From positions 1 through 64,000 of IMG/VR virus record IMGVR_UViG_3300046692_000130: a DNA stretch of 64,000 nt. One strand, 5' to 3'. The stretch's first letter is position 1. Every line of letters starts with the position of its first letter. Of the stretch, positions 1 through 18,784 are shown piece by piece. A program made the translations under genes and the position numbers. The DNA comes from a virus. The notes below the pieces were generated by a model that made no database searches, was not told the origin of the DNA, and saw nothing but the letters and a program-made list of their open reading frames with translations.

Positions 1-345
1 GCCGTCCGTTATGTCTGGCGCGATCTCTGGCGCGTCTTTGTTTGCATCTATTGAAACGGTAAACGCATGCGAGACTTGCCCGTCAAGTAAAAACTTTGCT
101 GGCGCTGGCGTATATGCGTCGACGCTGGCCCGTTGCTGGCCCGTGTGGCGTCCGTGTGGCGTCCGTTATGCTCTGGCCCGTCCGTCTACGCTGGCGCGTC
201 TCTGGCCCGTTGTGGCGATCTCTGGCCCGTTGCTCTGGCCGTTGCTTGGCGCTGGCGCTGGCGCTGGCCGTCGACGCTGGCCCGTGTGGCGATCTCTAAA
301 GCGCTTGGCCGTTGCGCTGGCGCTGGCGCGATCTCTGCCACAAAG
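1..345. repeat. Short-word repeat block A (CTGGCCCGT, GCGCTGGC, GCGATCTCTGG, GTCGACG), A-poor on + strand
   Basis: Mosaic of recurring 5-11 nt words visible directly; reverse-complement vocabulary of the block at 3280-3770. Confidence 0.85.
56..86 (-). promoter_or_regulatory. Putative promoter TTGACG-N19-TACCGT firing out of the window to the left
   Basis: Same -35 and same 19-nt spacer as the promoters at 1332-1362 and 2858-2888. Confidence 0.5.
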
Positions 346-375
346 TAAAACGGCCAGACTCTAAAGTCTGACCGT
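342..375 (-). terminator. Rho-independent terminator, near-identical copy at 1436-1470
   Basis: Minus strand hairpin ACGGTCAGAC...GTCTGGCCGT followed by TTTACTTT, just downstream of ORF 400-1092. Confidence 0.75.
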
Positions 376-399
376 GTAACCGTGTGATGTTCTGGCGCG

Positions 400-1092
400 C
401 TATTGAATGACGTTTAGAAGCGCTTTATTTGCCTTTTTCACTCCACTGCCATGTGTTGCAAAAGCGATTACAGCGCCAGTATCGCGCAAACGGTCAGCAT
501 TCATGCAAAGCTTGCATGATAGGCAATTTGCAGCTTTGCCCGTTTGTTGTGGGCAAGGAATTACCCTTACTCCGTCGACAACTTTAGCGCTGGCCGTATC
601 GTGATATTCGACAACAATAGCAGCGCCAAAACCCTTTGCCATGGCGTCTTTTGTATCGGCGATAGTCTCGCAAGATGCAAGCACGGACACATCACGCCAT
701 GACTGGCGCGAAACATTACGCCATGCATGCGTGTAAGACCATACACTCTGGCCATGCTTGGCGCGATACTCTGACGCTGCAGCGCTAACCGTCGACGCGC
801 CAGCATCCGTTGTGCAATCTCCCACAACGTGTAGACGCAACGGACGGACGCCAGACAATTCACGGATTGCCAGCGCTTCGTTATCGGCCAGCGTCTGTAG
901 ACTCTGACCCTTTGCTGCAGTGTTGAGACGCTTTGTATGTATCGCCATAGGGCCAGACTCGGCGTAGCATCCTGACCCTTGAAACGGGCAACTAGACGGG
1001 CAAGTCTCTTGTGATGCATATGTGGCCGATACTTCACCAATTTTGATGTTGCCAGACTTCTCAATTGCCATAACTCCAATGTGCTTTGCCAT
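400..1092 (-). CDS. Cys-rich phage protein (DUF7227/gp88-like, possible Fe-S or metal binding)
   Basis: 230 aa; TCPSSCPFQGSGCYAESGP, RLHVVGD, YTH, CPQQ..NCLSCKLC motifs; AAACGGAGAT RBS. Confidence 0.75.
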   Translation of the reverse strand: MAKHIGVMAIEKSGNIKIGEVSATYASQETCPSSCPFQGSGCYAESGPMAIHTKRLNTAAKGQSLQTLADNEALAIRELSGVRPLRLHVVGDCTTDAGASTVSAAASEYRAKHGQSVWSYTHAWRNVSRQSWRDVSVLASCETIADTKDAMAKGFGAAIVVEYHDTASAKVVDGVRVIPCPQQTGKAANCLSCKLCMNADRLRDTGAVIAFATHGSGVKKANKALLNVIQ

Positions 1093-1165
1093 GATTTTTT
1101 GATCTCCGTTTTTCTTGTTTTATAGTGCGTTTTTTGTTGTCTGTATCGTTTGAGATTGCAGCAAA

Positions 1166-1291
1166 TTACCGCGTCTTTGTGGGATAAACCATGTGGCAGA
1201 GTAGACGGGCCAGACCGTGCAAAATGACGTTGTGGAACATAGCAAAGATAATCATTCCGCTGCAGAATATCGGGCCAGCAAAGTTAGTCAT
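1166..1291 (-). CDS. 41-aa hydrophobic peptide (absent from ORF track)
   Basis: MTNFAGPIFCSGMIIFAMFHNVILHGLARLLCHMVYPTKTR*; preceded by the AAACGGAGAT RBS and a promoter. Confidence 0.6.
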   Translation of the reverse strand: MTNFAGPIFCSGMIIFAMFHNVILHGLARLLCHMVYPTKTR

Positions 1292-1331
1292 GCGCTTTTG
1301 ATCTCCGTTTCTTGAAATGTGTTGCATAAAC

Positions 1332-1362
1332 AAAATAGCACGTTTTCTAACTCATCCGTCAA
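1332..1362 (-). promoter_or_regulatory. Putative promoter TTGACG-N19-TATTTT with extended -10 TG
   Basis: Homologous to 2858-2888, including the downstream GCAACACAT and the RBS. Confidence 0.65.
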
Positions 1363-1435
1363 GAAAAATAATTGTCTTATTTTGCGCGATCTCTGGCGCG
1401 ATCTCTGGCCGTTGCTCTGGCGCGATCTCTGCCAC

Positions 1436-1470
1436 AAAGTAAAACGGCCAGACTATAGCGTCTGACCGTT
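1436..1470 (-). terminator. Rho-independent terminator (copy of 342-375)
   Basis: Hairpin plus U-tract downstream of ORF 1523-1798. Confidence 0.75.
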
Positions 1471-1522
1471 GCGTCTAATGCCTATTCTTGGCCCGATACT
1501 GGCCCGTGTAGTGCTTGGCGCG

Positions 1523-1798
1523 CTAATCGTGAGTAATTACAGCATCTATGGCCCGTTGCATCGCATGGCGTCCGTGTGATGAAGGATAAAAGACGCCAAT
1601 CATGCGCGCTGGCGCATTGCGTCCGTCCGGTCTCAAAAAAGCTTTGTAAGGGTTTTCAGTGTCTGGCGTATCGTGGAATTTTTCGATGTGACCCAAAACG
1701 GCATTGCCTCTAAAAATAAGCCACACGTCAGACTCGGAACCTACACGCGCATCCTGCAGAACAACACGGACGCCAGATATTGTGTTTTCGTTTGCCAT
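1523..1798 (-). CDS. Hypothetical protein, 91 aa
   Basis: AAACGGAGAT RBS; lies between a promoter and a terminator. Confidence 0.7.
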   Translation of the reverse strand: MANENTISGVRVVLQDARVGSESDVWLIFRGNAVLGHIEKFHDTPDTENPYKAFLRPDGRNAPARMIGVFYPSSHGRHAMQRAIDAVITHD

Positions 1799-1851
1799 GG
1801 TAATAAATCTCCGTTTCCAATAGGTCTTTTGTTGTCGGTATAGGGTAAGAA

Positions 1852-2817
1852 TTACTGGCCAGCGCTGGCCCGTGTTACGCGTGTACCTGCAGCGCCGAGT
1901 CTAAAGCGCAATGGTTGCCCGTCTATTTTGTTCGGAACATACACTCTGGCCGAATTGCCTAGCAGGTACAAACGGCAATCTTCGAATCTAAAGACGTTGC
2001 CCGTTGCGTCCGTCCAATCCAAAACGATTCCGTCAAGCTGGCAATCTGTATCGTCTGGCGTCAGACCTAGCAAAGCACGGGCAGACGTTGCAGCATCGCG
2101 CTGGCGATCTAACTTAGCGGCCAGCGTCAGAGGATACGCTGCAATTGCCTTTTGACGGTCAGATTCTATTTGCTCTGGCGTGAATACAAGCGAATTGCCT
2201 TTAGCGTCGACGCCAAGCGCTGGCGCGATCTCTGGCAAGTTGTGGCCGTTTCTGTTTTCTTGATTGTGCAAAATGCTGTACGGAATGCCCGAGTTATTCG
2301 CAATGATCATATTTTGCGAATGATCAAAAGCAACCTTTTGCTCTGACCGTTTCGCCATGCATACCATGCAAACTGGCGCATTGCGAACATATACGCGATG
2401 ATCTCCACACGTCGACGCGAAGCAATCGGAGCATGAATCTTTAGCGTCTTTGCATGGCACATCTGCAGTAGAGACCGGATGCGCGCATATGTGGCAATGG
2501 TTGGCCCGTTGCTCTGCCACATAATCCGCATAACCTTCTATCGCATGCATGGCGTGAACATCAGACATCCGCGTCTTAGCATCCGAGTTATAGAAACGGA
2601 CGGTAATGTTTCCGCGAGTGTCAGACGTTGCACGGGCAAAGATTCCACACGCCAAAACAGATTCAACACGGATTGTGTTGTAAGACCACGAAGGAACTGC
2701 AGGATTCTCTTTTGCAATCGTTTGGATTGCGCGCCAGATTGCCCGTCTAACCGTTTCAAGTTTGCTTTGTGCATCCGTTGCGATCTCAATTACCGTGTAT
2801 TCGATTTTGCTTGCCAT
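1852..2817 (-). CDS. Hypothetical protein with central Zn-finger-like Cys/His cluster, 321 aa
   Basis: Start moved to ATG 2817 behind the AAACGGAGAT RBS; CHIC..C..CSDC..CGDH..CMVC. Confidence 0.75.
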   Translation of the reverse strand: MASKIEYTVIEIATDAQSKLETVRRAIWRAIQTIAKENPAVPSWSYNTIRVESVLACGIFARATSDTRGNITVRFYNSDAKTRMSDVHAMHAIEGYADYVAEQRANHCHICAHPVSTADVPCKDAKDSCSDCFASTCGDHRVYVRNAPVCMVCMAKRSEQKVAFDHSQNMIIANNSGIPYSILHNQENRNGHNLPEIAPALGVDAKGNSLVFTPEQIESDRQKAIAAYPLTLAAKLDRQRDAATSARALLGLTPDDTDCQLDGIVLDWTDATGNVFRFEDCRLYLLGNSARVYVPNKIDGQPLRFRLGAAGTRVTRASAGQ

Positions 2818-2857
2818 GGTCTCTAATCTCCGTTTTTGTTTTATGTGTTGCACATCC

Positions 2858-2888
2858 AAAATAGCATGCAATCTAACGTATCCGTCAA
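2858..2888 (-). promoter_or_regulatory. Putative promoter TTGACG-N19-TATTTT overlapped by palindrome CGTCA-N10-TGACG
   Basis: CGTCAATTTATTTTCTGACG occurs at 2883 and again at 3261. Confidence 0.65.
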
Positions 2889-3279
2889 TTTATTTTCTGA
2901 CGGTATTACGTCAAGCATTCAAATTGAATGATTTTGATCTCATCTATATATAGCGAAAAAAAATCTCATGCGATACATGTTTACTAAATAGTAAAAATAT
3001 AGGCATTTTTAGTGAGTTTTCCACAAGCAATTAAACGCTATTAGAGACGCCACACGGACGCGGATGTCTGACCGTGTAGGGTAGGACGTTTCTTTTAGTC
3101 GACGTCTGTACGGGCCAGCAAACGGCCACAGCGTTTAAATTCGTTTTCGCTTTTCATACGCTTTTGACCTATTTTTCCTATTCGCCAGATTAGCTTTTGT
3201 GTCAATAGCTTTTTTTGAGACTCACGGAAAAAAGTTACAGTCAAGAAAAAAGTATGATTGCGTCAATTTATTTTCTGAC

Positions 3280-3770
3280 GCGCCAGACGGACGGCCACAC
3301 GTCGACGCCAGAGCAACGGCCAGCGCCAGACGCCAGCGCGCATGTATGCACGGACACGGACGGGCCAGACCGTACCCTATACGCGCCAGAGATCGCGCAA
3401 CGGACAACGGCCAGACCATTAGGACAACGGACGGCCAGACGGACAACGGCCAGCGCCAGACGTCGACGCGCCAAGCGATACAGACGGGCCAGTCTCGGGC
3501 CAGAGATCGCGCAACGGTCAGACGGCCAGAGCATGGCAACGGACGCCACACGGGCCAGTATGCGCGCCAGAGTACAGACGCCAGACACGGGCCAGCGCCA
3601 GAGTATGTAGACGTCAGACGGACGGGCCAGACCATGTGGCAGAGATCGCGCAACGGCCAGCGCGCCAGCATAGATAGAAGGTACGTATAGACGGACGGAC
3701 ACGGGCCAGCATACGGGCCAGATACAGACATAGTAGAAGGTGAGATATCAGACCATGGCGTCTATGCACG
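3280..3770. repeat. Short-word repeat block B (GCCAG, ACGGGCCAG, AGAGATCGCGC, ACGGACG), T-poor on + strand
   Basis: More than 20 GCCAG words; 3539-3558 is the exact reverse complement of 136-155. Confidence 0.85.
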
Positions 3771-3848
3771 GTCTTAGATAGGCAAAGTCTTTGCTTTGCT
3801 TAGACTTAGCACGGGCCAAGCATGGCCAAGCATACGCCAAGCACAACC

Positions 3849-4125
3849 TAAGTTATTGATTCTATTAGAGACCACGGCAATCCACGAAAGACTTCGTAGA
3901 TAGACGCCTATTAGATTCAATGACATACGGGCAAGCGCTTTGTAACCTATTGAATTCATTACGTTTGAATCTACGAACTTCATCGTACGAACATCATCGT
4001 AGGCTAAGTTGTTCATTTTGAATGAGATAGCGGGGGTGGGTTCAAAATCGCATTATCAGACCTACTCGCGACCGACGCGCAGGTTGAATTTACACACCTG
4101 CACATCATTTAGAATCAAGGAGATA
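3849..4125 (+). other. Putative cos / packaging initiation region with IHF-like sites
   Basis: GGGGGTGGGTTCAAAATC..GACCGACGCGCAGGTTGAATTTACAC resembles cos regions of HK97-type phages as I recall them; IHF consensus YAANNNNTTGATW perfect at 3849, one mismatch at 3943, 4005, 4113; sharp compositional boundary. Confidence 0.6.
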
Positions 4126-4423
4126 GGCAATTTCAGCACTTTCGCGCCCTCGGCCCCGGTGATGGTCTGCTTGGTTGTCATGGTGGGATTCATTGATCCT
4201 AAAAGAGTTCTGCCCCAATGTCAAGCATAAAGTGTGCAGTAATCACTGCATACATTTTCTTGTCAAATTAGGGTAATTTTTATGCTTATTGAGGCAACCA
4301 TACCTTCAGGGCAGACCGGCGCAGCCACGAGGCGCTAATGAGCAGGGCGAGGCACTCTAGGCGATGCTCTGACCCCCATGCTACGGCTTGGATCCACAGG
4401 TAGGTTTCGCCTATGATTCGCCC

Positions 4424-4771
4424 ATGTGGTTTATGGAGCCGATGAACGCCCGAGGCAAGCCAGCGACTCACCGCGTCCTGATGAACTACATGCTCCGTGA
4501 CGGGTGGCAGATCAGCTTCCTCGAAGCCGACTGTAAGACTTCCCTCCCCCACCGGCTGGTCTTCCGTGACCCGGGAAAGATTTTGGAGATGCAGATCCGG
4601 TGGGGTGAGGAGAAGTCATCAGCCAGAACGGGCGACATCGAGCGCGACATTCGAATGGGTCGACCCGGGGGAGTCTGGCTGATCCTTTCAACTGAGGACT
4701 ACGAGAAATTGCGGGTGGTGCGTAAACCAGTCAGATCGGTCAGCACGACCGTCAGACGGCGACAGGGCTAG
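4424..4771 (+). CDS. Conserved hypothetical protein (type recalled from Acidobacteriota genomes)
   Basis: HRVLMNYMLRDGWQISFLEAD..GRPGGVWLIL; probably leaderless from ATG 4424, 6 nt after TATGAT. Confidence 0.65.
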   Translation: MWFMEPMNARGKPATHRVLMNYMLRDGWQISFLEADCKTSLPHRLVFRDPGKILEMQIRWGEEKSSARTGDIERDIRMGRPGGVWLILSTEDYEKLRVVRKPVRSVSTTVRRRQG

Positions 4772-4977
4772 TCGGCGCGTAGTTCATCGCCCATGGTGCC
4801 AAGGAACTCGACCGGCCTACCGTCTTCGTCAACGAACTGTAGATCGCGACCATAGGGCATGGCGAACAACGGGCTGGCCGCTGCTGGGCGCTCAAGCCCA
4901 TTCGTTGATATCCCCAAAGCCGCCAGTGTAGTCTTCAATGAGTCGACATCGTCAGGATGAACTAGGAACGTGATCAA
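4768..4977 (-). CDS. Hypothetical protein
   Basis: Overlapping start/stop with 4974-5243; GGAGG RBS. Confidence 0.6.
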   Translation of the reverse strand: MITFLVHPDDVDSLKTTLAALGISTNGLERPAAASPLFAMPYGRDLQFVDEDGRPVEFLGTMGDELRAD

Positions 4978-5243
4978 AGCTTCCTCCGGTGGTCTCTCTG
5001 CTGAACTGGGTGGGGGCAGAGCGACATGTCAGCGTTGTGGATTGCTCGTGCTCGGGCGTAGAGACGGTGGTACTGTTCGCTAAAAACACTGTAGGCGACA
5101 CAGCCAACGATCTCGCCCGGGGTGCAGCCACAGACCTTAGGTTGATTCTCGGCTGCTCGTTTGGACGCCTCCATCTGCTCTTCCCGGCGCTGCGCCCAGA
5201 GGCTCAACAAGTACCATTTTTGCGGTATAGCTTGAGTGCTCAT
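4974..5243 (-). CDS. Hypothetical protein
   Basis: ATGA-coupled operon member. Confidence 0.6.
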   Translation of the reverse strand: MSTQAIPQKWYLLSLWAQRREEQMEASKRAAENQPKVCGCTPGEIVGCVAYSVFSEQYHRLYARARAIHNADMSLCPHPVQQRDHRRKL

Positions 5244-5650
5244 GCGATCCTCGCAGTTCCAAGCGCGGGGATCCTTAGCTTGTTCATGGCGCGTGAGAAG
5301 CCAGACTGGCGCTGGGTGTCTTGTGGCATCTCACCGGTCTCAAAAAACTCCATGCCGGTGGCAGTGATACGTGCGCCCTGTACGTTAGTACCTTTGAACT
5401 CGATCAATCCCCTGCGCCGTGCGCGCTCTATGGCCTGATCGATAAGTTGATGGTCTGCGGACGGTCGCGTGAAACGGAGTACAAGATCCCCGTATCGAAG
5501 ATCTGGTTTGTTTCCCTTAGGGGCAGATGAATCGAAGGTGCGATGGAGTTCTGCAATCATGAAGCCCCGAACTACTTGCAGATCGGTGATGTCTTCTCTG
5601 TGTTGCTGCTCCGCGTAAAGGTTAGGCACTACTGCGCTGCTGCCAGACAT
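5240..5650 (-). CDS. Hypothetical protein, possible winged-helix C-terminal half
   Basis: AAGGA RBS; RRRGLIEF..ARITATG pattern. Confidence 0.6.
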   Translation of the reverse strand: MSGSSAVVPNLYAEQQHREDITDLQVVRGFMIAELHRTFDSSAPKGNKPDLRYGDLVLRFTRPSADHQLIDQAIERARRRGLIEFKGTNVQGARITATGMEFFETGEMPQDTQRQSGFSRAMNKLRIPALGTARIA

Positions 5651-5663
5651 GGTACTTGTTCCT

Positions 5664-6200
5664 TCATGATTGAAATTCGTTTGCCGTCATGATCGTTGTA
5701 TTCGATCGGTCTCCCTCTGTAACGATTACCAGAGGCACTCGATTGCTTAGTGTGAACTTGCTTATGAGTCGTCCACCGTTCTTGGCACCCTTGTCGTTGA
5801 GGCGCTTCTGCTTCGGTGTAACTTCGCCCCAGTCGCCGGTCATATGGCGCGGAAGGAACGACGCAACATTCTCGTCGGCAGTGAAGAGAGCTTCCATCCC
5901 TGCCTTAGTCGTATGGCATTGACCAAGATCTGTATAGGGCAGGAGTGGCTTCTTCGGGAGCCGGTGCTTCGTTGCATTGACTCGTTGCCCGAGGTTGTAA
6001 CCTTCTTCAAAGATCGCCGTCTGGGCCTCTTCGCAAACGATCAACCTACGGACGATCTTCGTAACCTGCTCAGGAGTGAAGTACTCAGCAAACTCCTTCT
6101 TTGATTTCGTGCTTCTTCTCTTTGCGCTCTTCGCAATTCGCAATGCTTCATCGAGATCTATGTCGGTGCCTACGTACATGGGGAGTCCCTCGCAAATCAA
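5664..6200 (-). CDS. Protein with C-terminal plasmid/ICE-type domain (RH..GDWG..GGRLIS..TEGDRS.TT)
   Basis: Recognisable motif string of a widespread small mobile-element family; GAGG RBS. Confidence 0.7.
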   Translation of the reverse strand: MICEGLPMYVGTDIDLDEALRIAKSAKRRSTKSKKEFAEYFTPEQVTKIVRRLIVCEEAQTAIFEEGYNLGQRVNATKHRLPKKPLLPYTDLGQCHTTKAGMEALFTADENVASFLPRHMTGDWGEVTPKQKRLNDKGAKNGGRLISKFTLSNRVPLVIVTEGDRSNTTIMTANEFQS

Positions 6201-6227
6201 TAGAGCAGATGTCGGCGCAGAACTCGA

Positions 6228-6446
6228 TCAAGACATCTTTGTAAAATAGATGCTTGCAAGCTGGTCATCGATTGTGAGAACACCCGTCACCTTGAACACG
6301 CCGTCCAGTTCAAGATCTCCATCGGATTGGATTGACAGAAGATCACCTGATTTAGCTGGTCTCAATCCCTCAAACTCGGCTGGGAGACCCCCGGGGAAAG
6401 CCAACTTATACCGGCCATTCCCCATCTCGATGATCCGTTGCTTCAT
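6228..6446 (-). CDS. Hypothetical protein, probably leaderless
   Basis: TTGCAA-N17-TACTGT ends 6 nt before ATG 6446. Confidence 0.6.
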   Translation of the reverse strand: MKQRIIEMGNGRYKLAFPGGLPAEFEGLRPAKSGDLLSIQSDGDLELDGVFKVTGVLTIDDQLASIYFTKMS

Positions 6447-6515
6447 TTGCCAACAGTAGCATGATACTTGACTCTTTGCAACAAGCCTCGGCTGTATCGT
6501 CTGAGTAAGCACAAC

Positions 6516-7406
6516 TCAACCGATTTTGTCTGTACCACTCTTGTCGATATACGCCCAGTACTTCACATCCGCGCCGGGAAAGTGCGTGAACCAGACTTCG
6601 CCGTTCCTGCAGTCGCGCACCATTTGAGCGATTCCAGAGTCACCGCAGGTATGCAGCACAAGGATCTTCTCGCTCACTTCGTAGTCTCCGCGCCTCACGA
6701 ACGTGGGCAGGACAGTGACCGGGTTCCATGGAATGCCAGCACGACGCTCGTCGTTCAACTTCGCAATCTCAGCATTGAGCTTTGCAATCTCTGCCTCTTG
6801 CATGTCGAATGCAATTTTACGCTCGGCGGCTTCCTTGGAGACGGTTGGGTCGTTCGCGATCCGAATGTTTTGTTCGACGAGCTTGGCAAGGGCCGCTCGA
6901 TGGTTGCCGTCCTTGCAGCAGCCCCAGACTGTGGCGAGGTAGTCGTCGACCTGAACGAGACACGCCCTCGCTTCGTTCATTTCGTTCTGCAGCTTGGTCG
7001 CCCGGGCCTCGGCTTCCTTCTTCGTCCAATGCTCCCGGTAGAACTTGTTCTCTGCGTCAGTCATACGGTCGGCCAGCTTCCTGATGTGGTCGCGCTGTTC
7101 GTAGTTGGTGAACCGGCGAGGCTGGCCGTTGTACATCGTGTACGACTTGAGCTTGTCTTCGGCAAGTAGTGCGCGGGAGTTTCGCACCGTGCGCTTCTTC
7201 CAATCGATATGGACACCAGCCTTCTGCAGCGCCGACGTCAGCGTGTCTCTCAGTGACGTATTTGCAATGATGAGATCTTCGACATCTGTCCTGAGTTCCT
7301 GCGCCCGATCCTGCCACGCAAACTGACGAGCCAGTGTTGAGATGATCTTCCGCTTGCGCCTAAAGAATGGAATGGGTACGGAACGGGCCTTCAGTTCGTG
7401 CTCCAC
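6516..7406 (-). CDS. Coiled-coil hypothetical protein
   Basis: Long ORF in the operon; start uncertain (GTG 7406). Confidence 0.65.
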   Translation of the reverse strand: MEHELKARSVPIPFFRRKRKIISTLARQFAWQDRAQELRTDVEDLIIANTSLRDTLTSALQKAGVHIDWKKRTVRNSRALLAEDKLKSYTMYNGQPRRFTNYEQRDHIRKLADRMTDAENKFYREHWTKKEAEARATKLQNEMNEARACLVQVDDYLATVWGCCKDGNHRAALAKLVEQNIRIANDPTVSKEAAERKIAFDMQEAEIAKLNAEIAKLNDERRAGIPWNPVTVLPTFVRRGDYEVSEKILVLHTCGDSGIAQMVRDCRNGEVWFTHFPGADVKYWAYIDKSGTDKIG

Positions 7407-7428
7407 CTTGACGGCTATGTAGGGTCTG

Positions 7429-7641
7429 CTAGACAACCTTGACCTCCAGCTTCCGATCATCAACAGCGATGAGCTTCGCATCCTTTGGGTTCGCGAGATC
7501 CACTTCGAACGTCAGCTTGTGCTCGTAGCCAATGAACGAGAAATCCCGTGCTGCCTCTCCAGTGAGACCAAGCTGGTCAGCCTTGCTGTACATGTAATCG
7601 CCGTCGGCGTGGAGATGCACGTCGATAGTGGTCTTAGCCAT
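7429..7641 (-). CDS. Hypothetical protein
   Basis: AAGGA RBS, overlaps the upstream stop. Confidence 0.65.
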   Translation of the reverse strand: MAKTTIDVHLHADGDYMYSKADQLGLTGEAARDFSFIGYEHKLTFEVDLANPKDAKLIAVDDRKLEVKVV

Positions 7642-7972
7642 TGGTTTCCTTCTCGAAGCTCTTCATGGCTTCGTACACCGTGGTCAGGGTTGCGGTGTCG
7701 GCTTGGAGCCAGTTGAAGTTGCGAATGGCGTGTGACATGTTCGTGCGCTGGTTCGCGAGAAGCTGCTTGTCCCAGATCTCTTGATCGAACGCTTGTGCAT
7801 ACGCTCTGTGCCAGATCCCGCTGCCGATCTGTCGACCATCTGGTGTGTACTTCACGCCACCGGCGGTGAATCGACCAGTGCGCGTGACATTTGTAACTGC
7901 TTGTTTGTAGTAAGGGCCAGCGATACGGCGCACGAGTACGACATCACCGACCTTTACGGTGAGATTGTTCAT
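7634..7972 (-). CDS. Hypothetical small beta-barrel-like protein
   Basis: VKVGDVV..VTNVT.TG pattern; AAGGA RBS. Confidence 0.65.
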   Translation of the reverse strand: MNNLTVKVGDVVLVRRIAGPYYKQAVTNVTRTGRFTAGGVKYTPDGRQIGSGIWHRAYAQAFDQEIWDKQLLANQRTNMSHAIRNFNWLQADTATLTTVYEAMKSFEKETNG

Positions 7973-8019
7973 GTATTTCCTTTGTATTTGTGGGGTATTA
8001 GGGCTGCTTTAGCGCGCTT

Positions 8020-8325
8020 TCAGTCGCAGAATATGTCGTAGAAGTCGCCTTTTACGGGCAACGGCCATAGCAGTACAACGGTGCCATCCTCCGGTACTTG
8101 CACGGTGGGAGCGTTGGGTACGTTCTCACCTGTCTGTTGTACGAGGCAGTGAGCGCCTTTCTTGAGGTTGGGCAGCTTGAAGAGATCTGTGTGGTTGCCG
8201 GTCGACTCGACTGACATACGAAACGTGACAGGATCCATCGTTGAATTCTGGGCGATCATTCCGATGCCACAGCCGATGAGTGGAAGCGCCAGCGCGCCGA
8301 GTAAAGTTGCTGTGATGTTCCTCAT
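8020..8325 (-). CDS. Exported or lipoprotein-like hypothetical protein
   Basis: MRNITATLLGALALPLIGC: signal peptide with lipobox-like LIGC. Confidence 0.6.
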   Translation of the reverse strand: MRNITATLLGALALPLIGCGIGMIAQNSTMDPVTFRMSVESTGNHTDLFKLPNLKKGAHCLVQQTGENVPNAPTVQVPEDGTVVLLWPLPVKGDFYDIFCD

Positions 8326-8876
8326 GCTGCCTCCAACAATTGGAAGTCGGTCATGCGATATGCAGCCTTCTCACGGAACAGGACGGCAGCGCCGGTGAAT
8401 GTTGCTCTGGTCAGAGTCCAGATTGACTGACGCATGTCTTCGACGTGAGCATCGGCCAACTCATAGCTCATACCCATCTCAGTTGCGCCTTCGAGCTTCG
8501 TTGCCGCTTCGGGAAAGTCACGACCGAAGACGTGGCCACCGACGACGATGAAGTTATCGATGATCTCGGCTGTTGTGATGACGCCGATCTTCTGACGAGC
8601 ATCATGACCGTCCCATCCCACCTTGTAATCGACGGCCATACCGATGAGTGAAGGTAGTGCTTGCTCCGCAGCGCGACGTGTGAGGATCACGCGGTGACCA
8701 CGCGCACCGTTGGGTGCTTTGTCGCTGGGTTTGTCCAAGACGGTGAGTACGCCATGGAACGATTGGCGGTTTGGGTGCGAAGAGGCTCTGAGCGTCAGCC
8801 TCTTGTCACGCTTCCTTCTACCTTTCTCAAGGTAGAGTCTGTTGGGGTTATTCGTATCTGCGTAAATCGCGATCAA
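8322..8876 (-). CDS. Prohead-protease-like protein (orphan, early region)
   Basis: GHDARQKIGVI and GMSYEL parallel the His and Ser motifs of HK97/herpes-fold maturation proteases. Confidence 0.55.
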   Translation of the reverse strand: MIAIYADTNNPNRLYLEKGRRKRDKRLTLRASSHPNRQSFHGVLTVLDKPSDKAPNGARGHRVILTRRAAEQALPSLIGMAVDYKVGWDGHDARQKIGVITTAEIIDNFIVVGGHVFGRDFPEAATKLEGATEMGMSYELADAHVEDMRQSIWTLTRATFTGAAVLFREKAAYRMTDFQLLEAA

Positions 8877-9337
8877 CTCTTCTTGATTCCTTTCTTTGAC
8901 GAGACGACGCCGTGCGCGTCCTGAACCTGATTGCAGATGAGGTCAGCCAGCTTGTTCTCTTCTCTCTTCACATGGGTGAGAGTCACGCTGCAGTGTGCCT
9001 CGATCATCGAGAGCAGATCGCGGGTCTCACGGAAGATGCTGAGAAGGTTTTCGTCCTTCACTGCCCACTCGAAGCCCAACTGCTTGACGGCCAGTTGAGA
9101 GTCACTGATGAATTGGATCGTCGTGGGCAGATCCGCGACCGGCAGGGTGAGGACGTGCTGGCAAGCCATAAGGAAGCCTCGGTACTCAGCCTGATTGTTA
9201 GTTGTGAATGGAATGAAGCCAGAGTGTTGCTCGACTTCGCCTGTCTCTTTGGTGATGACGAAGGCCCATGCACCGGCCCCGGGATTATCCCTACATCCAC
9301 CGTCTGTATTTATCAGCCAACCTTTTACTTGTTGCAA
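8873..9337 (-). CDS. rnhA: Ribonuclease HI family protein
   Basis: TDGGCRDNPG, TNNQAEY, SDSQL, REENKLAD motifs. Confidence 0.92.
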   Translation of the reverse strand: MQQVKGWLINTDGGCRDNPGAGAWAFVITKETGEVEQHSGFIPFTTNNQAEYRGFLMACQHVLTLPVADLPTTIQFISDSQLAVKQLGFEWAVKDENLLSIFRETRDLLSMIEAHCSVTLTHVKREENKLADLICNQVQDAHGVVSSKKGIKKS

Positions 9338-9550
9338 ACATCTACCTTTCTGTCTGGCAAGATCATGTTCTCAGACATCAGTGCAAAATGCAATAAAAAT
9401 AATGCTGGTTTAGACAAGTTTTTTATTGTTTGTCCCAACCCAAAACCTCTCCCATTCGTGAGCCTAAGAAATAAAAGAATTTAGGTGCTTGACTTTCACA
9501 ATGAATACTGTCAGAATTTTGCTGTATGTAATTCTTCAAGGAGAAACATC

Positions 9551-9928
9551 GTGGTACAGACAAAAAAGCTAAAGTCACCCGGCTTCGCAATGGCCATGCA
9601 AAAGAAGATGGCCGAATTGGGCCTGTCCATTAACGATGTCGCCTCTTCTGCAGGTCATGCGTACGATCACATTCGCAAGGTCTACAACGGCGACACATTC
9701 CCCGGCCCGTATCTACTGCCCTCACTGTGCAAGACGCTGAAGCTCGACGTAAACGACATGCGTAAGAAAGTCATGGCCGACAAGGCACTGGAGAAGGGTT
9801 GGGAATCAGCCATCTCTGGTAAGGACAAGCGGCTGCTTCTGTTGGAGCGCTACTGGGCTTCCTTGAAGGACTCCGACAAAGAAGAATTGATTGCGATTGC
9901 TCGAATGAAGGCCAACGCCTCAGCTTGA
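9551..9928 (+). CDS. XRE-family HTH regulator (candidate repressor)
   Basis: ELGLSINDVA..HIRKVYNGDTFP; AAGGAG RBS before GTG 9551; divergent from the early operon; TTGACT-N17-CAGAAT promoter. Confidence 0.75.
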   Translation: MVQTKKLKSPGFAMAMQKKMAELGLSINDVASSAGHAYDHIRKVYNGDTFPGPYLLPSLCKTLKLDVNDMRKKVMADKALEKGWESAISGKDKRLLLLERYWASLKDSDKEELIAIARMKANASA

Positions 9929-9946
9929 TAGATTCACGAAAATGAG

Positions 9947-10000
9947 AAATGGCCTCTTGAGGGCGTCCAGCTTGCACCGGGACATTCTCAAGAGGCCATT
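9947..10000. terminator. Long inverted repeat between convergent genes
   Basis: AATGGCCTCTTGAG...CTCAAGAGGCCATT. Confidence 0.65.
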
Positions 10001-10005
10001 CGAGT

Positions 10006-10527: not shown

Positions 10528-10539
10528 TGCTCCTTTTGG

Positions 10540-15565: not shown

Positions 15566-15639
15566 AGGTCGGTAAGCTAACGGCAAACTGTCTGGCTCCA
15601 AACCAGAACTTGCGGGTTCAAATCCTGCTCGACCTGCCA
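15566..15639 (+). tRNA. tRNA-Trp(CCA)
   Basis: Acceptor AGGTCGG/TCGACCT, anticodon arm TCTGG-CTCCAAA-CCAGA, GTTCAAA T-loop, encoded CCA. Confidence 0.93.
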
Positions 15640-15708
15640 AACATCAACAACAGACCCGCCACGCCTCTCACGGAAGCGCAACTGGCGGGTTTTCTATTTG
15701 GAGCAAAC

Positions 15709-16089
15709 TTGCCATCTCGAAGTCAACGACCATGCTCGGTTCCCGGGTGTACGAACCTGTGCGCGAACAGATGGTGCGAGATCCACGAGAAGGACAAGAC
15801 GGTCACACGGAAGTACGACCTCTACAGGGGCAGCAGCACTGAGAGAGGCTACGGCGGCGAGTGGCGCAAGGTTCGCCTTCAGATCCTGAAGCGCGACAAC
15901 TTCCTCTGCGTTGCCTGTCTGGCCACTGGCCGACCGACCACGGCAACTGACGTCGATCACATCGTGCCTATGGCGCGTGGCGGTGCTCGACTGGATCCTA
16001 ACAACCTGCAGTCACTTTGCAGTGTGTGCCACAAACGCAAGACCTATGAGCACGATGGGGCATTTGGCAACGACGTAAGCGAGATCTAA
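15709..16089 (+). CDS. Terminase-associated HNH endonuclease (HK97 gp74-like)
   Basis: Start reassigned to TTG 15709 (GGAG RBS); RPC..PGC, RGY..W, VDHIVP..GG..NLQSLC..CH..KT. Confidence 0.9.
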   Translation: MPSRSQRPCSVPGCTNLCANRWCEIHEKDKTVTRKYDLYRGSSTERGYGGEWRKVRLQILKRDNFLCVACLATGRPTTATDVDHIVPMARGGARLDPNNLQSLCSVCHKRKTYEHDGAFGNDVSEI

Positions 16090-16103
16090 GGAGCAGAGAC
16101 ACG

Positions 16104-16667
16104 ATGACGTGCATAGTAGGTCTCGTCGATAAAGACGGTGTTGTGCTTGGAGGAGATTCAGCGGGTGTCGATGAGTCGTTCGCTATAGAGTCGCGCACAG
16201 ACCCAAAAGTCTTCACGCGTGGCCCATTTGTCATTGGCTTCGCTGGCAGCTTCCGCATTGGGCAATTGCTGCGCTACAAGCTCACGACGCCTCAACATCA
16301 GATCAAGCTCGAAGATCACGAGTACATGGCGACACGTTTCGTGGACGCGGTACGAAAGTGCCTGAAGGACAACGGCGCGGTGAGTGATGACTTCAAGGCA
16401 GAGACCGGCGGTACCTTCTTGGTCGTCTATCGCAACAAGCTGTACTCGATTCAAGAAGACTACCAAGTCGCTTGTGTGCAGGATTCGTTCGACGCAATCG
16501 GGTGTGGATCTGACATCGCGAAGGGCGCACTTTACGTGCTCCCGAAAGACATGACGACTGAAGATCGAGCGCTGAAGGCACTACAGGCTGCTGAACGATT
16601 CAGCGCCGGTGTGCGCGGCCCGTTCCATCTCGTCCGAAGTAAAAAACAACGAAAGAAAGTGAAGTAA
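16104..16667 (+). CDS. HslV/proteasome-beta-like Ntn-hydrolase peptidase
   Basis: M-TCIVG N-terminal Thr, GGDS, PKVF, GFAGS, AIGCGS. Confidence 0.8.
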   Translation: MTCIVGLVDKDGVVLGGDSAGVDESFAIESRTDPKVFTRGPFVIGFAGSFRIGQLLRYKLTTPQHQIKLEDHEYMATRFVDAVRKCLKDNGAVSDDFKAETGGTFLVVYRNKLYSIQEDYQVACVQDSFDAIGCGSDIAKGALYVLPKDMTTEDRALKALQAAERFSAGVRGPFHLVRSKKQRKKVK

Positions 16668-17081
16668 ATGCCGACACCAAGAAAGACAGTCGACCAACTG
16701 CGACTGAGTGGAGCACTTGACGTGAACCCCGGTAGATATGCGGATCGCGTCGAGAACGAACCGGTACCAACTGGCGAGATCGGTGATCCTCCTGAGCACT
16801 TCAGGCATGCCAAGAAAAAGATCTGGCGCGAGATCGTTGCGAACTCTCCCCCGGGAGTGCTCAAGAATAGCGACCGCATGACAGTCGAACTTGCTGCTCA
16901 CCTAATGGACAAGCTTCGTAACGACGAGGAAGGAATCTTGAAGGCGAGTGAGTACACCTTGCTGCTGAACGTCCTCGCGAAGCTCGGTATGAACCCAATT
17001 GACCGCACACGAATCGCGGCAACCCCGCCCGACAAGAAAGAGAAAGCTGCCGATCCATGGGCAGAGCTACTGCAGCAGTGA
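16668..17081 (+). CDS. terS: Terminase small subunit (P27-like)
   Basis: PRK..NPGR, PPEH..AKKKIW, KLGMNP.DR; directly before TerL. Confidence 0.85.
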   Translation: MPTPRKTVDQLRLSGALDVNPGRYADRVENEPVPTGEIGDPPEHFRHAKKKIWREIVANSPPGVLKNSDRMTVELAAHLMDKLRNDEEGILKASEYTLLLNVLAKLGMNPIDRTRIAATPPDKKEKAADPWAELLQQ

Positions 17082-17092
17082 CCTAACCACAC

Positions 17093-18784
17093 ATGAACAT
17101 CTCGATCAATCACGCGCACGACGCGCACCAATACGCACATGACGTCGTCGCTGGAAAGATCACGTCCTGTAAGTGGGTCAAGCTTGCATGCGAACGACAC
17201 CTGAAAGGTCTCGACGAAGCAAAGCAGGATAGCTACCAGTGGGAGTTCGATGAAGCTAAAGCGAACAAGGTTTGCAAGTTCATGGAACTGCTCCCACATG
17301 TCAAAGGCAAATGGGCTGCTAAAGCTGAAACAGTACGGCTAGAACCATGGCAGAAATTCGTAATTGCGAACATGTTCGGATGGGTCGATAAGACCACCGG
17401 CCTTCGCAAGTACCGCATCGTCTACATCTGCGTTCCTCGTAAGAACGGCAAGAGCTTCTTGGCTGCTGGCATCGGGTTGTACTTGTTCGCGCTCGATGGT
17501 GAGTTTGGCGCTGAGGTTTATTCCGGTGCAACCACTGAGAAGCAAGCGTGGGAAATTTTCCGACCGGCGCAACAGATGTGTGAACGCACACCTGCACTGC
17601 GCGAACGTCTCGGGATCGCGGTCAACGCGAAGACACTGACGATTGAAAGCAACGGCTCCCGTATGTTGCCTGTCATCGGATCTCCCGGTGATGGTGCCTC
17701 GCCGTCTGGCTCCCTCATCGACGAATACCACGAGCATCCTACAGACGTCCTGCTCGACACCATGATCACTGGTATGGGTGCTCGTGAGCAGCCTCTGGCG
17801 ATCATCACTACGACTGCTGGCTCAAACACTGCTGGCCCTTGCCGAATGCTCCAGAGTGATCTGGAGAAGGTTCTGGAAGGGACTTTTACGAACAACGAAC
17901 TCTTCGGTGTGATCTACACCATCGACGAGGGCGACGACTGGCAAAGCGAGGAAGCACTTCGCAAAGCGAATCCGAACTACGACGTATCAGTATCGGGCGA
18001 CTTCTTGAAAGCGCGTGTCGCTGAGGCAGTACAGTCGAGTCGCAAACAAAACATCACCAAGACGAAGCACCTGAACGTCTGGGTAAACGCAACGAGTGCA
18101 TTCTTCAACGTAGCCAAGTGGATGACACTGGCCGACGCGAATCTACACGAAGACCAGTTCATTGGTCAGCCTTGCGTTACCGGTCTCGACCTTGCGTCAC
18201 AGATCGACATCGCAGCCTCAGTGAAAGTCTTCATGAGGCAGATAGATGGCGTCGAACACTACTACATCTTTGGGAAGTTTTATATCCCAACGGATACGGT
18301 GAACCTGCCGCAGAATCAGCACTACCAGCAGTGGCACCATGAAGAGCAACTCATAGCTACTCCCGGCAGTGAGACCGACTTCAGCTTTATCAAGCGAGGA
18401 ATCCTCGAAGACGCAGAGAAGTTCGCCGTCAAAGAGTTGGCGTTCGATAAATATCAAGCCACTCACTTGAAGCAGGAGATCGCGGCAGAGACATCCATCC
18501 TGACCACCGAGATCCCGCAGACACCCTTGATGTTGTCTGAGCCTATGAAGCAGCTTGAGGCAATGATCATCTCCGGTCGCATCCACCATGACGGCAACCC
18601 TGTGATGACGTGGATGATCGGCAACACCGTTGCCAGAGTCGATGCGAATGAGAATGTCTTTCCACGTAAGGAGAGACCTGAGAACAAAATAGACGGCGTC
18701 TCTGCCTTACTGAATGCGCTCGTTAGAGTTCGCTCTGCGATTACCGCACTTGATACAGAGTTCTTCGACTTCAACGGATTTTGA
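17093..18784 (+). CDS. terL: Terminase large subunit (HK97-type)
   Basis: PRKNGKS Walker A, IDEYHEH, ITTTAG, GLDLA, KIDG. Confidence 0.97.
   Translation: MNISINHAHDAHQYAHDVVAGKITSCKWVKLACERHLKGLDEAKQDSYQWEFDEAKANKVCKFMELLPHVKGKWAAKAETVRLEPWQKFVIANMFGWVDKTTGLRKYRIVYICVPRKNGKSFLAAGIGLYLFALDGEFGAEVYSGATTEKQAWEIFRPAQQMCERTPALRERLGIAVNAKTLTIESNGSRMLPVIGSPGDGASPSGSLIDEYHEHPTDVLLDTMITGMGAREQPLAIITTTAGSNTAGPCRMLQSDLEKVLEGTFTNNELFGVIYTIDEGDDWQSEEALRKANPNYDVSVSGDFLKARVAEAVQSSRKQNITKTKHLNVWVNATSAFFNVAKWMTLADANLHEDQFIGQPCVTGLDLASQIDIAASVKVFMRQIDGVEHYYIFGKFYIPTDTVNLPQNQHYQQWHHEEQLIATPGSETDFSFIKRGILEDAEKFAVKELAFDKYQATHLKQEIAAETSILTTEIPQTPLMLSEPMKQLEAMIISGRIHHDGNPVMTWMIGNTVARVDANENVFPRKERPENKIDGVSALLNALVRVRSAITALDTEFFDFNGF

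What the first reader, a model, noticed from the sequence alone, without database searches (positions are those of the whole stretch)
1..4125. Candidate leading-end system: relocated cos puts a sequence-restricted pre-early module at the first-ejected genome end
Seen: a cos-like G-run/ACCG motif with clustered IHF-like sites at 3849-4125. The usual cos position of HK97-type phages (between the HNH gene and terS) is fully occupied by an HslV-like gene, 12 kb away. Left of this site the DNA changes character abruptly, and all genes sit in promoter-RBS-gene-terminator cassettes transcribed away from it. Established: lambda-type phages package from cos toward the terminase genes and eject the last-packaged end first; T5 and T7 carry pre-early host-takeover/anti-defence genes on first-entering DNA. 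Inference: 1-4030 is the right end of the virion chromosome, enters first, and acts as a T5-like first-transfer module in a temperate cos phage.
Basis: partly seen in the sequence, partly recalled or inferred. Interest (0 to 1): 0.88.

Follow-up and report, generated by a model that had tools for sequence, protein, structure and literature searches.

The report
Odd-vocabulary gene module beside displaced cos
A 94-kb soil phage seems to cut its DNA 12.6 kb from its packaging genes, and the 4.6 kb next to that cut is written in a strikingly small set of DNA words, which may protect the first DNA to enter a cell, though entry order is not shown.

Summary
The window is the first 64 kb of a 94,594-bp viral contig that closes into a 94,364-bp circle. 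In an independent Logan assembly of the probable source run (about 19x), contigs stop at 4072 and restart at 4083. The uncovered 10 bases (CGACGCGCAG) are unrepeated. This is what a 10-nt 3' cohesive end looks like after end repair, and HK97 has such ends.

HNH, an HslV-like gene, terS and TerL are contiguous at 15.6-18.8 kb and no contig breaks there.

The 4.6 kb left of the cut wraps the contig ends. It lacks about 12 mostly asymmetric tetranucleotides, and this holds inside coding sequence (z = -6.8 to -10.9). It has two bicistronic promoter-terminator cassettes pointing away from the cut, and two inverted, strictly polar CTGGC/GGCCCGT arrays.

One gene (DUF7227) has a weak radical-SAM-like fold and is fused to DNA methyltransferases elsewhere. 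The other two longer proteins have no detectable relatives.

Similar GGCCCGT arrays occur near contig ends in other phages, in two complete genomes at the end away from the terminase genes.

Not shown: first entry, T5-like two-step transfer, anti-defence function. A moron or mobile cassette is a serious rival. The scan had already noted the vocabulary and the arrays on this same DNA.

The parts
1..340 (+). Array L, window part. It continues from record 94,001-94,364. It is a non-coding 'word salad' of CTGGCCCGT, CTGGCCGT, CTGGCGCG and GCGATCTC units with almost no A on the + strand.
   Evidence: 38 CTGGC on the + strand against 0-1 on the minus strand across 94,001-340. The rest of the genome has 1.7 per kb.
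350..375 (-). Intrinsic terminator closing cassette 2
   Evidence: 11-bp stem followed by UUUUACUUU, -21.5 kcal/mol, z -4.5
400..1092 (-). 230-aa DUF7227 protein. It is Cys-rich with a weak radical-SAM-like fold and is fused to DNA methyltransferases in other proteins.
   Evidence: Pfam PF23872 at 1.5e-33. 2249 representative proteins (one per 50%-identity cluster) match at E<=1e-3. Fusions to PF00145, PF01555 and PF05869. AF2 pLDDT 97.9. Best structural matches are QueE, viperin and other radical-SAM barrels at Z 5.2-6.7.
1166..1290 (-). 41-aa hydrophobic ORF with the module's standard RBS (first gene of cassette 2)
   Evidence: Read directly from the sequence. No homology was tested.
1335..1362 (-). 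Promoter-like element P2 (TTGACGGATGAGTTAGAAAACGTGCTATTTTG), 80% identical to the P1 region
   Evidence: Repeat family D13; pattern hits
1380..1560 (+). Short internal array of the same words, together with terminator T1 (1443-1470, minus strand)
1523..1798 (-). 91-aa protein with no relatives
   Evidence: Only itself found among 5.8 billion proteins
1852..2817 (-). 321-aa protein with no relatives and a Cys-rich centre
   Evidence: Only itself found. No Pfam, PHROG or NCBIfam match. AF2 pLDDT 38.8, unusable.
2857..3290 (-). Promoter P1 (TTGACG-16-TAAATT at 2914-2887) and an untranslated upstream region. The region holds further TTGAC elements and two copies of the palindromic GTCAATTTATTTTCTGAC.
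3237..3840 (-). Array R: the same words as array L in inverted orientation
   Evidence: 24 GCCAG and 0 CTGGC on the + strand
3849..4125 (.). AT-rich stretch flanking the cut, with clustered IHF-like and TTGAAT-type sites
4003..4024 (+). Right copy of the 22-bp border direct repeat GCTAAGTTGTTcATtTTgAATG. The left copy is at record 93,806-93,827.
   Evidence: 19 of 22 bases identical. The 9-mer GCTAAGTTG occurs only at these two places in the genome.
4031..4043 (+). G-run CGGGGGTGGGTTC, 29 bp before the cut
   Evidence: A comparable G-run lies about 40 nt from the contig end in G009.
4073..4082 (.). Inferred cohesive end CGACGCGCAG (10 nt, probably a 3' overhang)
   Evidence: Logan contigs of run X1 end at 4072 and restart at 4083, with no overlap and no repeat, at about 19x depth
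4196..4224 (-). Promoter-like site (TTGACA-17-TAGGAT, 10 of 12) pointing leftward across cos into the module. It would only be usable once the ends are joined.
15610..18784 (+). HNH, proteasome/HslV-like gene, putative terS (weak P27-family match) and TerL (PF03354 + PF20441). This is the canonical cos neighbourhood, and no genome end lies here.

Best explanation
**Genome ends.** The virion chromosome of this HK97-terminase-type temperate phage ends at 4072 and 4083, with a 10-nt, probably 3', cohesive end (CGACGCGCAG). That is 12.6 kb upstream of terS, not next to it.

**The module.** The 4.6 kb on the far side of the cut from the terminase genes runs from record 93,806 through the contig start to window 4024. 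It is a discrete terminal module. Reading inward from the end, it contains:
- an AT-rich segment with IHF-like sites;
- polar array R;
- sigma-70-type promoters firing inward;
- two insulated bicistronic cassettes (321 aa + 91 aa; 41 aa + DUF7227);
- polar array L in the opposite orientation.

**Proposed mechanism (inferred).** If packaging runs from cos towards the terminase genes, this module is packaged last and enters the cell first. Its promoters enter ahead of its genes, so host RNA polymerase can express the cassettes before the rest of the genome is available.

Both coding and non-coding DNA of the module use a reduced vocabulary that lacks about a dozen mostly asymmetric tetranucleotides. 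I read this as selection against short target words of sequence-specific host nucleases. That pressure would fall on the only DNA exposed before phage counter-measures act. This is the same logic as for the T5 first-step-transfer region.

DUF7227 elsewhere travels fused to three classes of DNA methyltransferase. It is the best candidate for such a counter-measure, through DNA modification or anti-restriction.

The arrays are a recurrent element near the ends of other phage contigs. They most likely control what happens to a free DNA end, either as Chi-like exonuclease control or as protein-bound stops.

**Shown:** the position of the ends (indirectly), the anatomy, the word statistics and the domain fusions.
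**Inferred:** packaging direction, entry order, early expression and any anti-defence role.
For: **Ends.**
- Logan record 4 ends at 4072 and record 1 starts at 4083. The other contig breaks (331/352 and 1417-1454) are overlaps caused by a repeat.
- Record 1 is 90,634 bp. That equals 352 + (94,364 - 4083 + 1), so it closes the circle across the contig start.
- HK97 ends carry 10-nt 3' overhangs (PMC9410871).
- TerL matches PF03354 and PF20441, and an HNH gene is adjacent.

**Module borders and composition.**
- 4-mer log-odds flip at the borders.
- Avoided words: GGGG 0; GGCT/AGCC 3 against about 36-40 expected; GGTG 3 against 43; GAGG 2 against 34.

**Non-circular test on coding sequence.** Twelve words were defined as depleted using the module's non-coding DNA only. 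They occur 55 times in its coding sequence. Resampling with phage-wide codon usage gives 176 +/- 11. Resampling with the module's own codon usage gives 115 +/- 9, and none of 1000 resamples was as low as observed. The Tunturi_1 homologue of the DUF7227 gene has 61 of these words against 16 in ours.

**Expression signals.**
- Promoters lie nearer the cut than their genes, and the terminators are strong.
- The RBS type is shared with the adjacent early arm.

**DUF7227.** Fusions to C5, N6/N4 and Dam methyltransferases.

**Arrays elsewhere.**
- GGCCCGT arrays sit at contig ends in other viral contigs. Nine of 20 whole-contig hits lie within 350 bp of an end.
- In two complete genomes the arrays sit at the end opposite the terminase/portal genes (G001; G009).

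**T5 logic.** RM and CRISPR act on T5-like phages only through sites in the FST region (PMC10644984; bioRxiv 10.1101/866236).
Against: - No read-level terminus mapping was possible. Contigs cannot show molecule ends directly, and the IMG/VR contig does bridge the 10 bases.
- Packaging direction is assumed, not shown.
- Short palindromes are not avoided. GGCC, GCGC and CGCG are enriched, with 375 four-base palindromes against 281 expected and 86 six-base palindromes against 57. Classical type II avoidance is therefore not the driver.
- Array words are also enriched inside coding sequence (z +6 to +8). The vocabulary could reflect selection for words, or copying from the arrays, rather than avoidance.
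- By the Chi orientation rule, an exonuclease entering at 4072 would cross array R in the inactive orientation. It would pass through the genes before meeting array L.
- The other two longer proteins have no relatives, and no known anti-defence family was found.
- Self-contained cassettes of odd composition are also what morons look like.
Confidence: 0.42

Rival explanations
1. **Moron or mobile cassette.** The 4.6 kb is a horizontally acquired accessory island. It was inserted by site-specific or illegitimate recombination about 50 bp from cos, a permissive spot. It would be expressed autonomously, perhaps from the prophage. Its odd composition would reflect its own history as a promiscuous element, and its position would have no link to entry order.
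For: - A 22-bp direct repeat (19 of 22) sits exactly at both composition borders.
- Each cassette has its own promoter and terminator.
- The phage is plausibly temperate: it has a tyrosine recombinase and a tRNA-Val gene.
- Run X3 holds four perfect 151-nt pieces of the module and nothing real from 4083-20000. Run X2 holds eight pieces of the phage body and no clean piece of the module. Depth is low, so this is weak.
- In G001 the two arrays are adjacent with no genes between them. The genes here therefore look like cargo inserted between pre-existing arrays.
Against: - The module has no integrase or transposase.
- The RBS type is shared with the neighbouring early arm.
- Depth equals that of the phage body (17.7-19.1x).
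- No donor genome is known to have so narrow a vocabulary.
- The DUF7227 gene is recoded relative to its nearest homologue at the nucleotide level. That argues for ongoing selection in place.
- This reading is compatible with the best explanation rather than exclusive of it.
Confidence: 0.28
2. **Recombination or end-processing region.** The arrays are dense clusters of Chi-like sites, or sites for another end-acting host or phage protein. They would resemble the terminally clustered Chi sites of lambdoid phages that rely on host RecBCD. The vocabulary of the genes between them would be a by-product, through gene conversion or templated repair from the arrays, and not defence avoidance.
For: - Phages LLS and MD8 have 20-32 Chi sites in one orientation, clustered at the right end. 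The Pseudomonas Chi is GCTGGCGC (PMC12315714).
- Our arrays contain GCTGGCGC 6 times, CTGGCGCG 12 times and CTGGCCCGT 22 times, with strict polarity.
- Array L is in the 'active' orientation for entry at 4072.
- The phage encodes a bacterial-type RecA (1e-104).
- Array words are enriched inside the coding sequence.
Against: - Array R is in the opposite orientation.
- Density (one unit per 6-20 bp, non-coding) is far above anything reported for Chi clusters.
- TGGCCCGT is not over-represented in the two Acidobacteria and two Proteobacteria genomes tested. The host is unknown, so this is not decisive.
- The words inside coding sequence are not polar.
Confidence: 0.15
3. **No genome end at 4073-4082.** The 10-base hole in the Logan contigs would have another cause, such as a local coverage dip, graph cleaning or micro-heterogeneity. 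The true cos or pac site would lie elsewhere, and the junction could even be an assembly artefact.
For: - Contigs cannot show molecule ends.
- The IMG/VR contig reads through the site.
- Dyad symmetry around the hole is weak: 6 of 11, matched by 3.5% of genome positions.
Against: - The hole has no overlap, no repeat and no alternative contig at about 19x depth. Every other break in the region is an overlap at a repeat.
- Its length equals the HK97 overhang.
- The module's left junction with the phage body is inside one Logan contig, and depths match.
Confidence: 0.12

Closest known systems
HK97-type cos packaging (TerS, TerL and HNH gp74; 10-nt 3' cohesive ends)
   Same: TerL matches PF03354 and PF20441. 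An HNH gene sits beside terS and terL, and terS gives a weak P27-type match. The inferred overhang is 10 nt. An AT-rich, IHF-like flank and a G-run lie near the cut.
   Different: The cut is 12.6 kb from terS, with an 11-kb leftward replication block (PolA, dUTPase and others) between them. In HK97 the cut lies between HNH and terS, and TerS binds 15-29 bp downstream of it (PMC11331095). Here the HNH-terS gap is filled by an HslV-like gene.
T5 first-step-transfer (pre-early) region; also the T7 leading early region
   Same: A terminal segment of a few percent of the genome (4.9% here, 7.9% in T5). It holds small genes, mostly of unknown function, and large untranslated repeat regions that include inverted partners (bioRxiv 10.1101/866236). 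The logic is shared: only sites in the first-entering DNA are exposed to RM and CRISPR (PMC10644984).
   Different: There is no ~10-kb terminal direct repeat. No A1, A2 or dmp homologues were found, and no DnaA-box injection-stop region. The ends are cohesive. Two-step entry is untested. The near-total loss of a word set inside coding sequence is not described for T5, to my knowledge.
[quoted passage not shown] 2025, PMC12315714)
   Same: Polar, one-orientation clusters of GCTGG-type octamers near the right cos end of temperate cos phages. GCTGGCGC, the Pseudomonas Chi, is one of the array words.
   Different: Here there are non-coding arrays of 29-47 units within 0.6-0.7 kb. There are two arrays in opposite orientation. 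The dominant word is CTGGCCCGT, of unknown activity. The phage has its own RecA. The host Chi is unknown.
Morons of HK97 and lambdoid phages (Juhala et al. 2000; from my own knowledge)
   Same: Promoter-gene-terminator units whose composition differs from their surroundings, placed at module boundaries or genome ends in temperate phages.
   Different: Morons are not known for a reduced vocabulary shared by coding and non-coding DNA. They are also not known to be bracketed by long inverted polar arrays.
Anti-defence 'leading regions' of conjugative plasmids (from my own knowledge)
   Same: Counter-defence genes are concentrated on the DNA that enters the recipient first.
   Different: Plasmid leading DNA enters single-stranded and uses ssDNA promoters. 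Nothing comparable is seen here.

Membership tests
HK97-type cos packaging system | Large terminase of the Terminase_1 type, with its nuclease domain | tested here: met
   PF03354 at 6.4e-24 and PF20441 at 2.9e-31. 49-52% identity to annotated phage TerL proteins.
HK97-type cos packaging system | HNH endonuclease gene next to the terminase genes | tested here: met
   PF01844 at 2.4e-12 for 15610-16089. It is separated from terS only by the HslV-like gene.
HK97-type cos packaging system | Unique genome ends with about 10-nt 3' overhangs | tested here: inconclusive
   A 10-base uncovered hole at 4073-4082 between Logan contigs at about 19x fits this feature. Contigs cannot show molecule ends or overhang polarity.
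HK97-type cos packaging system | cos lies immediately upstream of terS, between HNH and terS | tested here: not met
   There is no intergenic space in 16089-16668. A Logan contig is continuous across that region, and the break lies at 4072/4083.
T5-like first-step-transfer module | Homologues of the pre-early genes (A1, A2, dmp) | tested here: not met
   None of the three longer module proteins matches such a family in Pfam, PHROGs or NCBIfam. The 41-aa ORF was not searched. Two of the three have no relatives at all.
T5-like first-step-transfer module | Module lies inside a long direct terminal repeat | tested here: not met
   The only end overlap is the 230-bp assembly overlap, which closes a circle.
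T5-like first-step-transfer module | This DNA enters first, and entry pauses at a cis-acting stop signal | not testable with these tools
   Infection experiments are needed. Array L is only a candidate for a stop signal, based on its position.
Terminal Chi clusters (LLS/MD8 class) | The repeated word is the host's Chi, over-represented in the host chromosome | tested here: inconclusive
   TGGCCCGT occurs 131 and 174 times in two Acidobacteria MAGs, against 248 and 142 for the control word. It is not enriched in two Proteobacteria either. The host is unknown.
Terminal Chi clusters (LLS/MD8 class) | Sites are clustered near the right end in the single orientation that is active for entry at that end | tested here: inconclusive
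   Array L fits. Array R, which is nearer the end, is inverted.
Moron or mobile cassette | Own promoter and terminator, foreign composition, discrete borders | tested here: met
Moron or mobile cassette | Present or absent among related phages, or found in other contexts | tested here: inconclusive
   No relatives were found. The only hint is the low-depth split between runs X2 and X3.
Radical-SAM superfamily (DUF7227 protein) | Partial TIM barrel with a three-Cys cluster binding 4Fe-4S and SAM | tested here: inconclusive
   The best VIA matches are QueE, viperin, LipA and PFL-AE at Z 5.2-6.7, below the Z 8 reliability mark. C31, C35 and C42 are conserved as CX3CX6C, not the canonical CX3CX2C. 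Foldseek found nothing at E<=1e-3.

The most novel reading that the evidence does not exclude
Cos phages of soil bacteria may carry a previously undescribed terminal cis-system. It would consist of polar GGCCCGT/CTGGC arrays at the last-packaged, first-entering end, which govern the fate of the free end. In this phage the system would have become an 'armoured' landing pad. Cargo cassettes sit between two inverted arrays, and the whole unit, genes included, is written in a reduced DNA vocabulary that starves sequence-specific defences of targets until a DNA-modification function is made.
Probability: 0.25. Interest if true: 0.85.

Novelty: new variant of a known kind. Interest (0 to 1): 0.72.

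Why it matters
Confirmation would give three things.
- A temperate cos phage that uses a T5-like or T7-like 'protect the first DNA in' strategy.
- A clear natural case of genes recoded at the DNA-word level over a sharply bounded few kilobases.
- A recurrent, unexplained array element at phage genome ends that can now be searched for.

The avoided word list is a direct, testable read-out of what the unknown host's defences recognise.

Practically, cos cannot be assumed to sit next to terS in HK97-type phages. Gaps of overhang length between de Bruijn contigs can locate cohesive ends in metagenomes.

Tried and rejected
- **tRNA or att at the 4030 junction:** none. The only tRNAs are at 15.4, 15.6 and 47.0 kb.
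- **Relatives of the phage or module:** PolA and the 321-aa protein gave nothing close in IMG/VR or GTDB genomes.
- **cos-core words:** one 18-mer had no hit. One 19-mer hit a coding region of an unrelated contig by chance.
- **The module's 23-mer terminator word:** absent from viral and metagenome contigs.
- **Rfam on 1-5000:** no match at E<=1.
- **321-aa protein:** the ESM Atlas gave nothing. The single-sequence AF2 model had pLDDT 38.8 and was not searched.
- **DUF7227 protein:** PDB sequence search gave nothing, and Foldseek gave only weak TIM-barrel rows.
- **TGGCCCGT as a host Chi:** no over-representation in four genomes.
- **General restriction-palindrome avoidance:** not seen.
- **Dyad symmetry at the cut:** weak.
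- **PF03354 in five array-bearing contigs:** none found. Four are fragments of 12-28% completeness.
- **Shared motifs with G001:** a GGGTGGGTT 9-mer near the G001 contig end and CTTATA iterons next to the arrays in both phages were judged too weak to build on.
- **Runs X2 and X3:** they hold only 5-10% of the sampled words at 2-3x depth. No habitat or strain conclusion is drawn.
- **Other TGGCCCGT hits:** many of the 58 IMG/VR hits are coding repeats such as pentapeptide or collagen-like repeats, and were set aside.
- **Literature search for GGCCCGT:** it returned only primer sequences.

Full report
**What the window is.** The window is bases 1-64000 of a 94,594-bp IMG/VR virus record. The record's first 230 bases recur at its end with one mismatch. 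An independent Logan assembly of the probable source run (X1, rhizosphere, about 19x) contains a 90,634-bp contig. That contig runs from window 352 leftward across the contig start and round to window 4083. Its length equals 352 + (94,364 - 4083 + 1), so the genome closes into a 94,364-bp circle.

The phage has these genes:
- an HK97-type TerL (PF03354 + PF20441), a portal, an HNH gene and a weakly P27-like terS;
- a tyrosine recombinase and a tRNA-Val gene;
- a large leftward early arm with PolA, RNR, a bacterial-type RecA, a DNA ligase, a primase-helicase, two RNA ligases plus PNKP, and NAMPT.

Its nearest nucleotide match is a gene of Tunturiibacter (Acidobacteriota) phages. The host is otherwise unknown.

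**The observation.**
- the G-run at 4031-4040;
- ACCGACGCGC at 4071-4080;
- a cluster of IHF-like sites, 4 of the 23 window matches within 277 bp;
- HNH, an HslV-like gene, terS and TerL packed without gaps at 15.6-18.8 kb;
- an abrupt change of composition at about 4030;
- leftward genes with uniform ribosome-binding sites and strong terminators.

Two corrections apply. There are two bicistronic cassettes: P1 - 321 aa - 91 aa - T1, and P2 - 41 aa - DUF7227 - T2. The odd region wraps the contig ends, so it runs from record 93,806 to window 4024, about 4.6 kb.

**The genome ends.** In run X1 the Logan contigs covering the module break three times.
- Two breaks (331/352 and 1417-1454) are overlaps at a 38-nt word that occurs twice and has double depth.
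- The third is different. One contig ends at 4072 and the next begins at 4083. There is no overlap, no repeat and no alternative contig, and depth is 17.7-19x on both sides.

At that depth, 31-mers crossing 4073-4082 must have been nearly absent, so most molecules end there. A 10-base hole is what end repair leaves when it removes 3' overhangs; 5' overhangs would be filled in and give a 10-base overlap instead. HK97 has 10-nt 3' overhangs (PMC9410871).

The same contig is continuous through 15-19 kb, so the canonical HNH/terS position is not an end. I put the cos assignment at about 0.8. Contigs are not reads, the IMG/VR contig does bridge the site, and dyad symmetry at the cut is weak.

**The restricted vocabulary.**
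- In the 4.6 kb, GGGG/CCCC never occurs. GGCT, GGTG, GAGG, TGGG, GGGA, GCGG, CCGG, GAAG and a few others are 5- to 20-fold depleted.
- GG is tolerated mainly as CGG or GGC.
- The number of distinct 6-mers is far below any same-size window elsewhere in the genome.

To avoid circularity I defined 12 depleted words from the module's non-coding DNA only, then counted them in its coding sequence.
- Observed: 55.
- Resampled with phage-wide codon usage: 176 +/- 11.
- Resampled with the module's own codon usage: 115 +/- 9, with none of 1000 resamples as low as observed.

The nearest homologue of the DUF7227 gene, in phage Tunturi_1, has 61 of these words against 16 in ours. The genes are therefore recoded at the DNA-word level, including at codon junctions.

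Two caveats limit the interpretation. Short palindromes are not avoided, and GGCC, GCGC and CGCG are enriched. Array words are also enriched inside the genes, at z +6 to +8. Selection for words, or copying from the arrays, therefore cannot be separated from selection against words.

**The arrays.**
- Array L spans record 94,001 to window 340. It has 47 TGGC units with variable spacing of 6-20 bp, and CTGGC occurs 38 times on the + strand against about 0 on the other.
- Array R (3237-3840) has the same words, all inverted.
- One strand of each array is almost free of A, which explains the spurious long ORFs there.
- The top exact words are CTGGCCCGT (22 copies, against 1 in the other 89.6 kb), CTGGCCGT, CTGGCGCG and GCGATCTCT.

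Each border of the module carries an AAGTCT..AGACTT hairpin. Each also carries one copy of a 22-bp direct repeat, 19 of 22 identical, whose core occurs nowhere else in the genome.

**The arrays are not unique to this phage.**
- An IMG/VR scan for three spaced TGGCCCGT copies returned coding repeats. It also returned about a dozen unrelated contigs with the same kind of non-coding, A-poor arrays.
- Nine of the 20 hits where the whole contig is held lie within 350 bp of a contig end. Repeats do break assemblies, so this association is confounded.
- G001 is a complete 52.8-kb genome. Its array, an inverted partner array and a set of iterons sit at the contig start. The TerL operon abuts the other end.
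- G009 is a complete 50.5-kb genome. Its array and a G-run lie within about 150 nt of the contig end. A probable TerL and the portal lie 2.6-5.8 kb from the start.

In all three phages the arrays lie on the side of the junction opposite the terminase genes. This is the best available, though indirect, argument that the module is the 'right', last-packaged and so first-ejected end.

**The genes.**
- *DUF7227.* The 230-aa protein belongs to a large family: 2249 representative proteins (one per 50%-identity cluster) matched at E<=1e-3. In other proteins the domain is fused to C5, N6/N4 or Dam DNA methyltransferases. Its confident model (pLDDT 97.9) resembles radical-SAM partial barrels only weakly, at Z 5.2-6.7. 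It has conserved CX3CX6C and four-Cys motifs. A role in DNA modification or anti-restriction is a reasonable guess, not a result.
- *The 321-aa and 91-aa proteins.* Neither has any relative among 5.8 billion proteins.

**How it most likely works.** See Best explanation. The inference chain has four steps:
1. The ends are at 4072/4083 (indirectly shown).
2. Packaging runs towards the terminase genes (assumed from lambda and HK97, supported by G001 and G009).
3. The module therefore enters first, promoters ahead of genes.
4. Region-limited recoding reflects exposure of just this DNA to sequence-specific defences before protection is in place, as in T5, where RM and CRISPR act only through FST sites.

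The arrays may act as Chi-like or protein-bound end controllers. The closest precedent is the terminal, one-orientation Chi clusters of LLS and MD8. By that orientation rule, however, array R faces the wrong way for an enzyme entering at 4072.

**Rivals.** A moron or mobile cassette explains the cassettes, the border repeats, the gene-free paired arrays in G001 and the X2/X3 split. It is compatible with a leading-end role. A recombination-region reading explains the arrays and the RecA gene but not the word loss. An artefactual hole is unlikely.

**Verdict.** The 'first-entering pre-early, T5-like' reading is plausible but untested, and the module is not a member of the T5 system. The bounded reduced-vocabulary module and the recurrent GGCCCGT end arrays are, to my knowledge, undescribed. 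I class it as a new variant of a known kind, with interest 0.72.

Noticed in passing
IMG/VR loci L042/G001 (1-345, 440-580), L075, L032, L043, L026, L038, L030/L048, L062/G009, L056, L053, L076: Non-coding, A-poor 'word-salad' arrays built on GGCCCGT recur in about a dozen unrelated viral contigs, mostly at or near contig ends. In the two complete genomes they lie at the end opposite the terminase/portal genes.
   Followed up: partly
window 1-20000, runs X2 and X3: Run X3 holds four perfect 151-nt pieces of the module (163-313, 608-758, 3388-3538, 3514-3664) and nothing real from 4083-20000. Run X2 holds eight perfect pieces of 5380-17477 and no clean module piece. This hints that the module and the phage body can occur apart, but depth is very low.
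   Followed up: no
window 56029-60469; record 63,031-78,896 (L010, L009): The early arm encodes class I RNR subunits, a bacterial-type RecA (1e-104), an ATP-dependent DNA ligase, a Toprim-DnaB primase-helicase, an SNF2/ResIII helicase, two RNA ligases plus PNKP (a tRNA-repair set) and NAMPT (NAD salvage). The last two groups look like counter-defence functions.
   Followed up: partly
record 93,678-93,761 (L009 17679-17762), just left of the module: Four CTTATA-containing repeats, all in one orientation, lie between the module's left border and the first early-arm gene. They account for 4 of the 7 + strand copies in the genome. G001 has seven CCCYTRTAGTGGYGA iterons in the equivalent place next to its arrays.
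   Followed up: partly
window 10540-11061: An HNH_3/His-Me homing-endonuclease-like ORF overlaps the 3' end of the PolA gene by 13 nt.
   Followed up: no
window 4196-4224 (minus strand): A near-consensus sigma-70-like promoter (TTGACA-17-TAGGAT) points from the left genome end across cos into the module. It could work only after the ends are joined, or in the prophage.
   Followed up: no
window 11-364, 3222-3731; record 93,937-94,365: The long ORFs over the arrays are artefacts. The A-poor strand has almost no stop codons in any frame.
   Followed up: yes
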